From: Escherichia phage HannyBb | Sequence record: PP925841.1 | Direction: 5' to 3' (one strand) | Length of the DNA stretch: 45,272 nucleotides | Shown here: positions 25,769 to 28,240 of the stretch, piece after piece | Position numbering within the stretch: position 1 is the stretch's first letter | Layout: each line of letters opens with the position of its first letter | Made by a program: the position numbers and the translations under genes | Notes under the pieces: generated by a model | Database searches by the model: none | What the model was told of the DNA's origin: nothing | The model's input: only the letters and a program-made list of their open reading frames with translations

Positions 25769-28240
25769 TTAAGAATCAGCCTGACTCGGGATCAGTTTTT
25801 GCCAGATAACTGAAACGTATTTTGCCTGGTAACGGGCGTCATCAAGTGCATTATGGCGCTCACCTTCGAATGGAATAGCCGTTCTGGCATCGAAGTCTAT
25901 GGCTTTCCCCAGCTCAACGATTGTGCGTACATCGCGATCGTTGTAGTAACGCCACGGGCAGGGGATCCCCTGCCGTTCATATGAACGGCGCAAAATCGTG
26001 TTGTCGAAGTTGGCTCCATTTCCCCAAACCTGAACAAAAAATTCACCGGAGTTTTCGTCGATAAATTCCCGCAATTGTAACAGTGCATCATCTAACGGGA
26101 TTTCATCGGTCATAATGGCAGATTGCGCTTCGCGTGATTGCTTAAGCCACCATTTAATGGTGTCCCGATCAATGACTCCGCCAGCAGTTTCCAGATCGAT
26201 AGTCTTACTAAATTCCGGTCCCATATCTCCGGTTTGCGGATCGAAAAATATTGCACCTATTGAGATGATCGGGGCATCAGGATTTTTTCCCATGGTTTCA
26301 AGGTCGATCATTAGATGGTCACACGTCCTGCTGGTGGATGTGATTTCGTGATGACCGTTCACCTTAATTGGGTGATCTGCCGTCTCGCCAGTTTCATTAT
26401 CGCTATTGTGATGCTGATTGCCGCCAGTGTTCTCCTTGTGTGGATGTTCAGCGCCTTCCATTTCCTCCGGATCATCTTCCTGAACTTCAACCTGATACTC
26501 TTCATCGAATGTTTCTTGGTATGTTGCGTCGCCCATCACCGCGCCACAATCAGGGCAGTTGCCGCCGCCGGTCTGACCGCAGGCGGTGCAGACCTTTTCC
26601 ACTTCCTGTTGCGCCACTGGTTCAGGCTGTTTCGTTTCTGGCTCGTTTTGTAACGCATTTGGACTGTTTTGTTCCGCTTTTTGGTAGTTCCGTTCCGATT
26701 CATGCTGGTTCTGGTTCACAGAATCGCGGGTCTGGATCCCCTTAACCCATTTCGGATCATTCGGGTCACTAATCCCTTCAACAAATTCACCACGTGATGC
26801 AGCAAGCAACTTATCGGCGTCAGGCTGGCTGATATTGGCTGCCTGCATAATTTTGTTTACTTCGTCAGCGGTAACTTTTATCGGCTCTGGTTGTTCTGAA
26901 TCTTCAGCGGTATCTACATTTTGCGGTAAGCCCGTGTATGTGCCATTTTTTCGGGCAAAATATTCTTCTTTTGTGATTTCAGTGGCGCCAGCAGCCAGTG
27001 CCTTATCCAGACCAGAAAGTTTGTTTGCGCGACCGTATTTTTCTCCGTCCTTATCTGCGAAGAGGAAATAGAACGGCCCCTCACGCTCTACAGATGGTTC
27101 AGCTTCCGGCGCGGTTTCATTTTTTGGGATATCAGATACCTCAGTTTCCACTGCATCAGTTTGTGTTTCTGATGACTGGAGAACATCAACAGTGCCCAGG
27201 TCTGTTTCTTCATTCTCAAACACGCCCTTTGTCGTCAGGTATTCGCAGATATATTTGTTCAGTGCTACGGGATCTTTGTGAATGTCGATCGGACGCTCAC
27301 GGACAAGGCCAAAAATAGTTTGGCGGTCGTAGCGAAGGGCATCAGGCTGTTTGCGCATTGATGCCGAGATACGCTTCCAGTCTTCGCGGTCGTTGTCGAT
27401 AACTTCTTTTTTTGCCCAGCGATGGATGCTGCCGTCAATGTTTCCGGCATCCACATCACCAGGCCAGAGAGCGTAGGCCAGTTCGTCATCCAGTGTTTTC
27501 CATGTCTGCTTGTATTCGCGATGAATGGCAGCAATGACCGGGCTGATTTTTCCTGTTGAATTTTCAGTGTACTGTTGATTGGCTCTGGCGCGGGCGAGAT
27601 CAACAACAGACGTGTATTTTCCGGTTTCCTTGCGTTCACCTTCGCGACGTTTTTTCCAGATGCGCATCTCTGCCTGAATTTCGGGCCATTTAGCACCAGG
27701 AATACATTTATGCTTAACCCACCCAATGGCGTGCAACTTAAGCTCCGGATACATGGCGTTAACTTCTGGCATTTTCATCAACGCTTCAACGATATGTCCG
27801 TCGAATGTTGCCATGTCTTCCTGCAACAATTCCTGTGCGCTAATAACCATATCAACGGTGATGTTTTCACATGTGTCGAACTTAACCATGACAGCGTTCT
27901 GTACTTCAGGGGCCAGCTTGTCAAAAGTGACGTTCATCGGATCGGATTCAGTCTCAACCGGGACAAAAGAAGCAGACTCCTCATCCCAGCGGTTTTCCTG
28001 CATATATTCAGCATCCCATGAATCGAGGGCAGGGCGGGGTATGCCAGGTTTATCCTCGCAGACAATAAATTTATAAGCGCAGTCCTGAGCAGCCGGATAA
28101 TGTTCCAGGAATTGCCAGTGAAATTTTGCTCGAGCACGGCGTTCGTCGCCAGCTTCAATGGCTGTGGCTACAGCCACAGCGCCTTCTTCCCTTGTTGCCA
28201 GTTCGTCAGGAATAGCGGCGCAAATAAAGACTTTACTCAT
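25769..28240 (-). CDS. RecE-like exonuclease-VIII-type protein with C-terminal DnaQ-like (DEDDh) 3'-5' exonuclease domain
   Basis: 823 aa; middle segment (PDADKLLAASRGEFVEGISDPNDPKWVKGIQTRD...CTACGQTGGGNCPDCGAVMGDATYQETFDEE) matches recalled Rac RecE; the C-terminus carries Exo I DLETMG, Exo II GNGANFD and Exo III HNALDDA motifs. Confidence 0.78.
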   Translation of the reverse strand: MSKVFICAAIPDELATREEGAVAVATAIEAGDERRARAKFHWQFLEHYPAAQDCAYKFIVCEDKPGIPRPALDSWDAEYMQENRWDEESASFVPVETESDPMNVTFDKLAPEVQNAVMVKFDTCENITVDMVISAQELLQEDMATFDGHIVEALMKMPEVNAMYPELKLHAIGWVKHKCIPGAKWPEIQAEMRIWKKRREGERKETGKYTSVVDLARARANQQYTENSTGKISPVIAAIHREYKQTWKTLDDELAYALWPGDVDAGNIDGSIHRWAKKEVIDNDREDWKRISASMRKQPDALRYDRQTIFGLVRERPIDIHKDPVALNKYICEYLTTKGVFENEETDLGTVDVLQSSETQTDAVETEVSDIPKNETAPEAEPSVEREGPFYFLFADKDGEKYGRANKLSGLDKALAAGATEITKEEYFARKNGTYTGLPQNVDTAEDSEQPEPIKVTADEVNKIMQAANISQPDADKLLAASRGEFVEGISDPNDPKWVKGIQTRDSVNQNQHESERNYQKAEQNSPNALQNEPETKQPEPVAQQEVEKVCTACGQTGGGNCPDCGAVMGDATYQETFDEEYQVEVQEDDPEEMEGAEHPHKENTGGNQHHNSDNETGETADHPIKVNGHHEITSTSRTCDHLMIDLETMGKNPDAPIISIGAIFFDPQTGDMGPEFSKTIDLETAGGVIDRDTIKWWLKQSREAQSAIMTDEIPLDDALLQLREFIDENSGEFFVQVWGNGANFDNTILRRSYERQGIPCPWRYYNDRDVRTIVELGKAIDFDARTAIPFEGERHNALDDARYQAKYVSVIWQKLIPSQADS

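What the first reader, a model, noticed from the sequence alone, without database searches (positions are those of the whole stretch)
25769..28240. RecE-like scaffold carrying a DnaQ-type 3'-5' exonuclease domain, with no annealase partner
The middle of this protein matches recalled Rac RecE, but the C-terminal nuclease is a DEDDh domain (DLETMG / GNGANFD / HNALDDA) rather than the PD-(D/E)XK 5'-3' nuclease of RecE. No RecT, Bet, Erf or Sak-type annealing gene lies between it and xis. A 3'-5' exonuclease cannot produce the 3' tails that annealases use, so it is unlikely to be a standard recombineering pair.
Basis: partly seen in the sequence, partly recalled or inferred. Interest (0 to 1): 0.6.

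Follow-up and report, generated by a model that had tools for sequence, protein, structure and literature searches.

The report
RecE-scaffold protein with 3'-5' exonuclease
This phage gene is the intact form of the E. coli K-12 pseudogene ydfE: it joins part of the RecE recombination protein to a different, opposite-polarity nuclease, has no strand-annealing partner in the phage, and is common and catalogued but never tested.

Summary
ORF 25769-28240 (-) encodes 823 aa. Its C-terminus (aa 642-813) is a DexA/Rv2179c-type DEDDh 3'-5' exonuclease domain (Pfam PF16473, E=2e-67) with all five catalytic residues. Residues 262-627 match Rac RecE 278-592, and the match stops just before RecE's PD-(D/E)XK nuclease. 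No annealase was found in the 45-kb phage, nor within 6 kb in 80 related viral contigs.

It is not new to databases. It is PHROG 2082, PGAP calls it "3'-5' exonuclease", at least 80% of the queried region is present in 3369 of 5426 complete E. coli genomes, and K-12 ydfE is its IS2-truncated remnant. I found no functional study.

The new context is modularity. The same scaffold occurs with a PD-(D/E)XK nuclease (RecT next door where neighbours were inspected), with DEDDh (no annealase), with a Rad52-family annealase domain, or with no catalytic domain.

Best reading (about 0.45): a lytic-cycle DNA-end-processing exonuclease in the recombination slot of Qin-like lambdoid phages, working without its own annealase. 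The main rival is EcD-like anti-T4 defence.

Moderate interest; a new variant of a known kind.

The parts
25769..28240 (-). Whole gene: 823-aa mosaic exonuclease, the intact form of K-12 ydfE
   Evidence: ORF. PHROG 2082 matches end to end. PGAP names it 'exonuclease' or '3'-5' exonuclease'. The first 767 nt are 100% identical to K-12 ydfE. dN/dS is 0.17-0.29 against copies that are 94-96% identical.
27596..28240 (-). N-terminal module 'type A' (aa 1-215): an alpha/beta subdomain (1-95) plus a helical subdomain (104-205)
26360..27457 (-). Region homologous to Rac RecE residues 278-592 (aa 262-627): acidic, mostly disordered, with conserved islands
   Evidence: BLASTP and tblastn E=1e-61 / 6e-59. 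DNA is 77.9% identical to recE over gene nt 1425-1867. AF2 pLDDT is below 50 for aa 205-384. Net acidic charge by segment.
26936..27088 (-). Conserved mini-domain (aa 385-435), GPFYF...GRANKL...EIT.EEY.ARKNG
   Evidence: Predicted beta-hairpins plus helices at pLDDT 65-75. The motif is visible in the type-A scaffold relatives printed, whatever their C-terminal module.
26546..26590 (-). Probable zinc ribbon, C551-x2-C554 ... C562-x2-C565
   Evidence: Motif positions. Conserved in Rac RecE (CNACGQTGGDNCPDCG).
25802..26317 (-). DEDDh 3'-5' exonuclease domain (aa 642-813), DexA/Rv2179c family; catalytic D646, E648, D746, H796, D801
   Evidence: Pfam PF16473 E=2.4e-67. The only solved relative found is T4 DexA, 8KEL/8KEN. 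Catalytic columns are invariant. 38% identical to the EcD-like protein, 28% to DexA.
25445..25696 (-). Excisionase, the next gene downstream (72-bp gap)
   Evidence: Pfam DUF1233 putative excisionase, E=1.6e-31; annotation.
24130..25425 (-). Tyrosine integrase (ORF coordinates; PGAP places the start at 25410)
   Evidence: ORF; annotation.
28334..28525 (-). ydfD (lysis protein), the next gene upstream in the same leftward operon
   Evidence: Pfam DUF1482; PGAP name. Present in 79 of 80 related loci.
28522..28710 (-). dicB cell-division inhibitor
   Evidence: Pfam DicB E=7.6e-40. Present in 79 of 80 related loci.
28885..28936 (-). DicF sRNA
   Evidence: Rfam RF00039, 72.5 bits against a gathering score of 48.
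30122..30529 (-). cI/DicA-like HTH repressor at the head of the leftward region
   Evidence: Pfam HTH_3 and Phage_CI_repr; PGAP coordinates transferred.

Best explanation
The gene is the intact version of the Qin-prophage gene ydfE.

Position (shown). It lies in the leftward early operon of a Qin/mEp460/Tritos-type lambdoid phage. The order is cI, ydfA, DicF, dicB, ydfD, exo, xis, int. That is the slot between the division inhibitor and xis-int, where Rac carries recE-recT and lambda carries gam-bet-exo.

Architecture (shown). The protein is a three-part mosaic. It has a folded 215-aa N-terminal module of unknown fold class. It has a long acidic, largely disordered middle with conserved islands and a zinc ribbon, shared with Rac RecE. 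It ends in a DexA/Rv2179c-family DEDDh exonuclease domain with a complete active site. The phage has no annealase. All parts of the gene are under purifying selection.

Mechanism (inferred). The scaffold brings the enzyme to phage or host DNA ends or to a protein partner, as it presumably does for RecE. The DEDDh domain then removes nucleotides from 3' ends, the opposite polarity to RecE and lambda Exo. The protein therefore acts during lytic growth as a DNA-end-processing enzyme in recombination or replication-linked end metabolism. It would rely on host functions, or on annealase-independent joining of 5'-tailed ends, not on a dedicated RecT/Bet partner.
For: Domain identity and intact catalytic residues.

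RecE homology that ends just before the nuclease domain, and DNA-level mosaicism: nt 1361-2472 are 97.9% identical to the vB_EcoS-640R1 gene, whose N-terminus is 91.9% identical to recE.

Synteny with recE-recT and with gam-bet-exo.

The same scaffolds occur in recombination modules. P0257 has the type-A N-terminus with a PD-(D/E)XK DUF3799 domain. Rac, 666R9 and HK225 RecE each have recT adjacent. P0254, P0269, P0270, P0297 and P0351 carry the type-A N-terminus fused to a Rad52-family annealase domain. Their stand-alone homologues at E about 1e-58 are named 'Rad52/Rad22 family DNA repair protein', and some carry PF04098. A scaffold-only protein lies directly upstream of gam-bet-exo in Shigella phage 75/02 Stx.

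No annealase in the window or in 80 related loci.

Purifying selection on every module, dN/dS 0.0-0.42. All 80 IMG/VR copies match without interruption, 78 of them over the whole protein.

A published review calls the RecE N-terminal region a domain of unknown function and notes that full-length RecE gives enhanced activity for linear-linear recombination (PMC11611040).

In other phages, stand-alone members of this exonuclease family sit in replication/recombination gene clusters.
Against: No experiment exists for this protein or any close relative, so substrate (DNA or RNA), polarity and timing of expression are all inferred.

A 3'-5' exonuclease does not make the 3' tails used by RecA or by SSAP-mediated strand assimilation, so any recombination role would be unorthodox.

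The closest characterised E. coli homologue, EcD (38% identity), was reported as an anti-T4 defence enzyme, not a recombination enzyme (PMC12153337).

The function of the scaffold is itself unknown. Its fold gave no lead.

Synteny in mosaic lambdoid phages is suggestive, not proof of shared function.
Confidence: 0.45

Rival explanations
1. Prophage-encoded defence or superinfection exclusion. The DEDDh domain degrades the incoming DNA of other phages, for example 5hmC-containing T-even DNA. This is what was reported for the E. coli DexA homologue EcD ('HREX').
For: The C-terminal domain is 38% identical (E=2e-37) to a 189-aa protein that fits the published EcD primers, apart from one extra A in the reverse primer, and has Ala at position 78. 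The paper reports plasmid-borne EcD protecting against T4 and cutting the T4 genome but not unmodified dsDNA at 25 C (PMC12153337). The paper also says Escherichia is the largest source of bacterial DexA homologues. The gene is very widespread in E. coli prophages. Its neighbour dicB is known, from my own knowledge of the literature, to protect against some phages.
Against: At the positions the paper uses to define the EcD type, the window protein differs. DexA W152 aligns with Y766. DexA D169 aligns with A780, though that loop alignment is uncertain. The tetramer residue D90 is retained as D718 rather than replaced by Ala. The W152 position varies (Y/C/H/V/T/W) among close relatives. The gene lies deep in the repressor-controlled leftward operon, with no convincing promoter of its own. 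The 640-aa RecE-type scaffold has no explanation in this model. PADLOC matches only a generic DEDDh model at 23 bits.
Confidence: 0.2
2. Counter-defence or end protection. The phage has no Gam. The enzyme could convert blunt ends of phage DNA into long 5'-tailed ends that RecBCD cannot load on. Alternatively it could destroy a host immune nucleic acid such as retron msDNA or a signalling oligonucleotide.
For: No Gam homologue is present in the window or in 80 related loci. The scaffold occurs next to gam or Mu-Gam-like genes in other phages, which links it to end protection. The long acidic disordered region resembles DNA-mimic inhibitors only in composition.
Against: This is inference only; no homologue has such an activity. 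Rac also lacks Gam yet uses RecE/RecT.
Confidence: 0.12
3. DexA-like nucleotide scavenging. The enzyme degrades host or damaged DNA to mononucleotides during lytic growth.
For: T4 DexA is the only solved relative found. [quoted passage not shown]
Against: From general knowledge, temperate lambdoid phages do not normally degrade the host chromosome. Identity to DexA is only 28%. This model does not explain the scaffold or the position in the recombination slot.
Confidence: 0.08
4. RNA exonuclease, like the family founder M. tuberculosis Rv2179c. It would trim or degrade RNAs, for example processing operon transcripts such as DicF or turning over host RNA.
For: The Pfam family is named for a 3'-5' exoribonuclease. 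Many database copies are named '3'-5' exoribonuclease'. DicF is made from the same transcript region.
Against: PDB sequence searches with the protein and with a profile recover only T4 DexA, a DNase. EcD and DexA both act on DNA. The scaffold is shared with DNA recombination proteins.
Confidence: 0.08
5. A decaying mosaic remnant with no current function.
For: K-12 carries it only as an IS2-truncated pseudogene. Database entries are full of fragments.
Against: All 80 IMG/VR copies match without interruption, 78 of them over the whole protein. dN/dS is 0.17-0.29 overall and below 0.45 in every module. The catalytic residues are intact. At least 80% of the queried region is present in 3369 complete genomes. 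Most of the 'partial' entries sit on short draft-assembly contigs.
Confidence: 0.03

Closest known systems
Rac prophage RecE (exonuclease VIII, 866 aa) with RecT
   Same: Same slot in the leftward operon, between the division inhibitor and xis-int. aa 262-627 are homologous to RecE 278-592, and the zinc ribbon is almost the same. Both are long, with a C-terminal nuclease on an N-terminal region of unknown function (PMC11611040).
   Different: The nuclease domain is DEDDh (3'-5') instead of PD-(D/E)XK (5'-3'). The N-terminal 260 aa are a different module; there is no PF06630 match. There is no recT. The NCBIfam RecE model scores 283 bits against a cutoff of 1269.
E. coli K-12 ydfE (Qin prophage pseudogene, b1577)
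   Same: Same gene. The first 767 nt are 100% identical, and the neighbours are the same: ydfA, ydfB, ydfC, dicF, dicB, ydfD, ydfE, then intQ.
   Different: The K-12 copy is cut by IS2 after codon 255. It lacks the RecE-like middle and the exonuclease domain.
Bacteriophage T4 DexA (exonuclease A; PDB 8KEL/8KEN)
   Same: Same Pfam family (PF16473) and the same DEDDh catalytic residues. It is the only solved relative detected.
   Different: 28% identity. DexA is a stand-alone 227-aa protein of a lytic phage, with extra loops. The W152 and D169 positions are not conserved.
EcD / 'HREX' E. coli DexA homologue (PMC12153337)
   Same: Homologous exonuclease domain: 38% identity, E=2e-37. Found on E. 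coli viral contigs in IMG/VR.
   Different: EcD is a 189-aa stand-alone protein with Trp at the W152 position and Ala at the D90 position. The window protein has Tyr and Asp at those positions and carries a 640-aa scaffold. A defence role has not been tested for this protein.
RecE-N-terminus + DEDDh proteins (P0243, vB_EcoS-640R1 'exodeoxyribonuclease VIII')
   Same: Same middle and C-terminus: 97.9% DNA identity from nt 1361 onward. Same neighbours (dicB, ydfD, exo, xis, int) and no recT.
   Different: Their N-terminus is RecE's own PF06630 module instead of the type-A module.
Scaffold + Rad52-family annealase fusions (PHROG 2489; P0254, P0269 and others; Pectobacterium phage ZF40 gp07 carries the same annealase domain)
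   Same: In P0254, P0269 and the others, the type-A N-terminal module is about 40-45% identical and the mini-domain is conserved. ZF40 gp07 occupies the same leftward-operon slot.
   Different: The C-terminal module is an annealase-type domain, not a nuclease. These proteins are annotated 'exonuclease', probably in error. ZF40 gp07 matched P0254 only over the annealase domain, so its N-terminal type was not determined.

Membership tests
RecE / exodeoxyribonuclease VIII (NCBIfam NF007259) | C-terminal PD-(D/E)XK 5'-3' nuclease domain (RecE residues ~564/606-866) | tested here: not met
   No Pfam PD-(D/E)XK or DUF3799 hit. tblastn with RecE finds only residues 278-592. The BLASTP alignment ends at RecE 592.
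RecE / exodeoxyribonuclease VIII (NCBIfam NF007259) | Whole-protein score above the curated equivalog cutoff | tested here: not met
   282.7 bits against a cutoff of 1269; only model positions 271-600 of 877 match.
RecE / exodeoxyribonuclease VIII (NCBIfam NF007259) | N-terminal Exonuc_VIII domain (PF06630) | tested here: not met
   No hit at E<=1. Profile-profile comparison of the type-A module with RecE N-termini gives E=0.017 and probability 2.7%, which is inconclusive for remote homology.
RecE / exodeoxyribonuclease VIII (NCBIfam NF007259) | Homology to the RecE middle region, including the zinc ribbon | tested here: met
   39% identity over 366 aa, E=1e-61, and much closer from about aa 465 onward.
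Two-component phage recombinase (exonuclease + single-strand annealing protein: Red, RecET) | An annealase gene (RecT/Bet, Erf, Rad52/Sak, Sak4) adjacent or elsewhere in the phage | tested here: not met
   Every ORF of 110 aa or more outside the structural genes is classified as something else, apart from one 205-aa ORF of unknown function that matches no annealase. RecT and Bet tblastn are negative in the window. RecT, Bet and the Rad52-like domain are negative in 80 related loci. Erf, Sak and Sak4 were not used as queries.
Two-component phage recombinase (exonuclease + single-strand annealing protein: Red, RecET) | 5'-3' dsDNA exonuclease that leaves 3' tails | not testable with these tools
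   The fold family (DEDDh) predicts 3'-5' polarity. A biochemical assay is needed.
Rv2179c-like / DexA DEDDh exonucleases (Pfam PF16473) | Profile match above the gathering score over the full domain | tested here: met
   226.5 bits against 27; profile positions 2-177 of 177.
Rv2179c-like / DexA DEDDh exonucleases (Pfam PF16473) | DEDDh catalytic residues | tested here: met
   D646, E648, D746, H796 and D801 align with DexA D7, E9, D119, H186 and D191; these columns are invariant in the alignment.
Rv2179c-like / DexA DEDDh exonucleases (Pfam PF16473) | 3'-5' exonuclease activity and substrate (DNA or RNA) | not testable with these tools
   Inferred only from DexA and EcD (DNA) and Rv2179c (RNA).
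HREX / EcD-type anti-phage exonuclease (PMC12153337) | Conserved 5hmC-recognition residues (DexA W152 and D169) | tested here: not met
   W152 aligns with Y766. D169 aligns with A780 in a loop with uncertain alignment; D782 and D784 are nearby.
HREX / EcD-type anti-phage exonuclease (PMC12153337) | Loss of the tetramer-forming Asp (DexA D90 replaced by Ala in EcD) | tested here: not met
   The position is D718 in the window protein.
HREX / EcD-type anti-phage exonuclease (PMC12153337) | Protection of the host against T4 | not testable with these tools
   Needs plating assays on lysogens with and without the gene.
Known defence systems (PADLOC-DB v2) | Match to a system-specific model | tested here: not met
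   Only the generic CRISPR-associated 'DEDDh' model matches, at 23.5 bits.

The most novel reading that the evidence does not exclude
The RecE-type scaffold (N-terminal module, acidic middle, zinc ribbon) is a general DNA-end or recombination platform of enterobacterial temperate phages. It accepts interchangeable effector modules: a 5'-3' PD-(D/E)XK nuclease, a 3'-5' DEDDh nuclease, a Rad52-type annealase, or none. On this reading the DEDDh version defines a reverse-polarity, annealase-independent pathway for phage recombination or end protection, present in most E. coli genomes. Comparing the module variants would then give a direct handle on the long-unexplained function of the N-terminal two-thirds of RecE.
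Probability: 0.2. Interest if true: 0.7.

Novelty: new variant of a known kind. Interest (0 to 1): 0.42.

Why it matters
The gene is among the commonest prophage genes in E. coli. At least 80% of the queried region is present in 62% of complete genomes. Many records still name it 'exodeoxyribonuclease VIII', which implies a 5'-3' RecE-type enzyme that it cannot be.

Showing what a RecE scaffold does when it carries a nuclease of opposite polarity and has no annealase would clarify two things. One is how Qin-like lambdoid phages, which lack Red, RecT and Gam, handle their DNA ends. The other is what the N-terminal region of RecE contributes, which is relevant to RecET direct-cloning technology.

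If the enzyme instead acts like EcD, it would be a very widespread prophage-borne defence.

The survey also corrects the likely misannotation of scaffold-Rad52 fusions as 'exonuclease'.

Tried and rejected
(1) AlphaFold2 of aa 1-470 with a shallow alignment (17 sequences at 74-89% identity) gave pLDDT 51 and was not used for fold search. A second run on aa 1-215 with a diverse alignment worked, with pLDDT 88.

(3) Remote homology between the type-A N-terminus and RecE's N-terminus was inconclusive: hhalign E=0.017, probability 2.7%.

(4) The Rad52 nature of the C-terminal domain of P0254-type proteins was only marginal by three direct tests. Pfam gave 17.5 bits, below the gathering score of 20.3. 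hhalign against human RAD52 1-207 gave E=0.017. A PDB profile search found no RAD52 hit. It was settled indirectly, through strong homologues named Rad52/Rad22 family, some carrying PF04098.

(5) A combined full-length alignment for structure prediction was badly aligned and was dropped.

(6) Literature searches for Rv2179c with prophage, and for ydfE, found nothing on function. One search was wasted because the prefix 'rece' matches 'receptor'.

(7) The promoter/terminator scan found no more sites than in shuffled sequence, so it says nothing about independent expression.

(8) Both homologous-protein searches returned mostly partial database entries and were of little use for surveying architectures. 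The representative-library search did that job.
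Full report
**What is in the sequence**

The ORF at 25769-28240 on the minus strand encodes 823 aa. It has an ATG start and a GAGG 8-11 nt upstream. PGAP and the phage Tritos annotation call the same ORF.

- **C-terminus.** Pfam places a full-length Rv2179c-like 3'-5' exonuclease domain (PF16473) at aa 642-813, E=2.4e-67.
- **Catalytic residues.** In an alignment with T4 DexA and eight relatives, the five DEDDh residues are invariant. In this protein they are D646, E648, D746, H796 and D801.
- **Solved relatives.** The only one found by sequence is T4 DexA, 8KEL/8KEN.
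- **RecE match.** BLASTP against K-12 RecE aligns aa 262-627 with RecE 278-592 (E=1e-61). The alignment is much closer from about aa 465 onward and includes a CxxC...CxxC zinc ribbon. It stops a few residues before the RecE nuclease domain. The NCBIfam RecE equivalog matches only model positions 271-600 of 877, far below its cutoff.
The first ~260 aa are not RecE-like. RecE's N-terminal Pfam domain PF06630 does not match.

**Where it sits**

The window is a whole Qin/mEp460/Tritos-type lambdoid phage. It runs from the large terminase gene at position 1 to the small terminase gene at the end, and this region is 99.2-99.6% identical to phages Tritos and PhiR42_1.

The gene lies in the leftward early region. 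The order is cI-like repressor, ydfA, DicF sRNA, dicB, ydfD, exo, xis, int. That is the slot where Rac has recE-recT and lambda has gam-bet-exo.

K-12's Qin prophage has the same gene order. Its pseudogene ydfE is 100% identical to the first 767 nt of this gene and is then cut by IS2. The window therefore carries the intact form of ydfE.

**No annealase**

- Only 72 bp separate the stop codon from xis.
- Every ORF of 110 aa or more outside the structural genes is assigned to another function, apart from one 205-aa ORF (29197-29814) of unknown function that matches no annealase.
- tblastn with RecT, Bet, lambda Exo and Gam finds nothing in the window. Erf, Sak and Sak4 were not used as queries.
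- In 80 IMG/VR viral contigs carrying 94-100% identical copies, none has RecT, Bet, Exo, Gam or a Rad52-like domain within 6 kb. Of these, 79 have dicB and ydfD.

**How common and how well kept**

- Complete E. coli genomes with a match: 4806 of 5426. At least 80% of the queried region is present in 3369.
- It matches PHROG 2082 end to end.
- PGAP names it 'exonuclease' or '3'-5' exonuclease'. Other pipelines call it 'exodeoxyribonuclease VIII'.
- All 80 IMG/VR copies match without interruption, 78 of them over the whole protein.
- dN/dS against the most divergent copies is 0.17-0.29 overall and below 0.45 in each of four segments.

It is therefore a maintained gene, not debris. It is already catalogued, but I found no paper on its function.

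**Anatomy of the non-catalytic part**

A first AlphaFold2 run on aa 1-470 was poor (pLDDT 51). It did indicate that aa 205-384 are largely disordered and that aa 385-435 form a small folded unit.

A second run on aa 1-215, using ten diverse homologues, gave pLDDT 88. It shows an alpha/beta subdomain (aa 1-95) and a helical subdomain (aa 104-205).

**The scaffold is modular**

A search of 1.84 billion representative proteins, followed by Pfam scans, shows that the parts recombine freely.

| Scaffold N-terminus | C-terminal module | Examples | Neighbours |
|---|---|---|---|
| Type A (as here) | DEDDh | this window, Tritos | dicB, ydfD, xis, int; no annealase |
| Type A | PD-(D/E)XK (DUF3799) | P0257 | not inspected |
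| RecE's PF06630 | DEDDh | P0243, P0245, vB_EcoS-640R1 | dicB, ydfD, xis, int; no recT |
| RecE's PF06630 (not checked for HK225) | PD-(D/E)XK | Rac, vB_EcoS-666R9, HK225 | recT adjacent |
| RecE type | none (682 aa) | Shigella phage 75/02 Stx | directly upstream of gam-bet-exo |
| Type A | about 280-aa Rad52-family domain | P0254, P0269, P0270, P0297, P0351 | not inspected |

- **DNA-level mosaicism.** The vB_EcoS-640R1 gene is 97.9% identical to the window gene from nt 1361 onward, and its 5' part is 91.9% identical to recE.
- **The Rad52-type domain.** It carries Rad52-type motifs. Direct tests were marginal: Pfam Rad52_Rad22 at 17.5 bits, just under the 20.3 cutoff, and hhalign to human RAD52 at E=0.017 over 115 colinear columns. 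However, its stand-alone homologues at E about 1e-58 are named 'Rad52/Rad22 family DNA repair protein' by NCBI and UniRef, and some carry PF04098.
- **Phage ZF40.** Pectobacterium phage ZF40 gp07 carries the same annealase-type domain. It occupies the same operon slot and is followed by a Mu Gam-like gene. Its N-terminal type was not determined.

So the scaffold travels with recombination and end-metabolism genes. Among the loci inspected, an adjacent annealase appears with the PD-(D/E)XK module and not with the DEDDh module. RecE's N-terminal region is described in a recent review as a domain of unknown function, and that review notes that full-length RecE gives enhanced activity for linear-linear recombination (PMC11611040).

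**Relation to characterised exonucleases**

A 2025 paper reports T4 DexA and an E. coli homologue, EcD. EcD is said to cut 5hmC-containing T4 DNA and to protect cells from T4 (PMC12153337).

Using the published EcD primers, I recovered a matching 189-aa gene from IMG/VR contigs. The reverse primer differs from the gene by one extra A, and Ala78 is as the paper describes.

The window's domain is 38% identical to that protein and 28% identical to DexA. At the positions the paper treats as diagnostic, the window protein differs:

- Tyr766 stands in place of DexA W152.
- Ala780 stands in place of DexA D169, although that loop alignment is uncertain.
- Asp718 is retained where EcD has Ala.

PADLOC gives only a generic DEDDh hit. 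No promoter stands out upstream of the gene. The defence reading therefore stays open but is not the best-supported one.

**Interpretation**

Shown:
- a catalytically complete DEDDh exonuclease domain on a RecE-related scaffold;
- its position in the recombination slot of the leftward operon;
- conservation under purifying selection;
- no annealase in the phage.

Inferred:
- 3'-5' polarity and DNA as substrate, from family membership;
- expression with the early lytic operon, from position;
- a role in DNA-end processing for recombination or replication, working without a dedicated annealase, from synteny and from the scaffold's other partners.

I put about 0.45 on that role. The rivals are EcD-like defence (0.2), end protection or counter-defence (0.12), DexA-like scavenging (0.08), RNase (0.08) and remnant (0.03).

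However, 5'-tailed ends can also anneal, so recombination as such is not excluded.

**Verdict**

The finding is real and was read correctly. It concerns an abundant, catalogued but uncharacterised protein, so it is not a discovery of something unseen. Its main value is the modular-scaffold context and the correction of misleading 'exonuclease VIII' and 'exonuclease' names. I rate it a new variant of a known kind, interest about 0.4.

Noticed in passing
relatives: P0254, P0269, P0270, P0297, P0351; L117 2714-4879 (Pectobacterium phage ZF40 gp07): Proteins grouped in PHROG 2489 and annotated 'exonuclease' appear to have no nuclease domain. They are the RecE-type scaffold fused to a Rad52-family annealase domain. 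ZF40 gp07 carries the same annealase-type domain (its N-terminal type was not determined) and is followed by a Mu Gam-like gene.
   Followed up: partly
L010 3351-5399 (Shigella phage 75/02 Stx): A 682-aa 'exodeoxyribonuclease VIII' consists of the RecE-type scaffold with no nuclease domain. It lies directly upstream of gam, bet and exo, so the scaffold can exist as a separate protein beside a complete Red system.
   Followed up: partly
L118 5079-5999 (E. coli K-12 ydfE): The K-12 pseudogene ydfE is 100% identical to the first 767 nt of the window gene and is then interrupted by IS2. ydfE is therefore the remnant of this exonuclease.
   Followed up: yes
window 25722-25751: An 8-bp inverted repeat (GCCGGTTG ... 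CAACCGGC, 14-nt loop) sits in the 72-bp gap between the exonuclease stop codon and the xis start, with no T-run after it. Its function is unknown.
   Followed up: no
window 32918-33697: A QueH-like (epoxyqueuosine reductase) gene lies in the region between the replication genes and Q, next to a truncated methyltransferase. It is an unusual cargo gene for a lambdoid phage.
   Followed up: no
window 22158-22748: A PinR-type serine invertase lies just downstream of the tail-fibre genes, which suggests an invertible host-range segment. I did not look for the inverted repeats.
   Followed up: no
window 34141-34315; 39563-39955; 42454-42870: Rfam finds a sok antitoxin RNA (with hokD) and two cspA-type thermoregulator leaders in front of cold-shock genes in the late region.
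   Followed up: no
window 29197-29814: A 205-aa ORF between ydfA and DicF matches PHROG 35040 end to end, but only its first 48 aa resemble a widespread small protein (PHROG 2061). In a near-identical prophage this region is annotated as a truncated ydfB. It may be a fusion or may not be a real gene.
   Followed up: partly
L093, L098, L108, L109, L111, L114 (IMG/VR contigs): A 189-aa protein matching the EcD primers of PMC12153337 is found on viral contigs, so the reported 'bacterial' defence exonuclease may itself be prophage-borne. The published reverse primer has one extra A relative to these genes.
   Followed up: partly
L007 6989-7561 (PhiR47_1); L119 3489-4061 (Yersinia phage YeP2): Stand-alone 190-aa versions of the same exonuclease domain (56-60% identical) also sit as one of the last genes of the leftward operon, shortly before int. 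They follow yfdP/Q/R-type genes, and in YeP2 a gene annotated RdgC also lies upstream.
   Followed up: no
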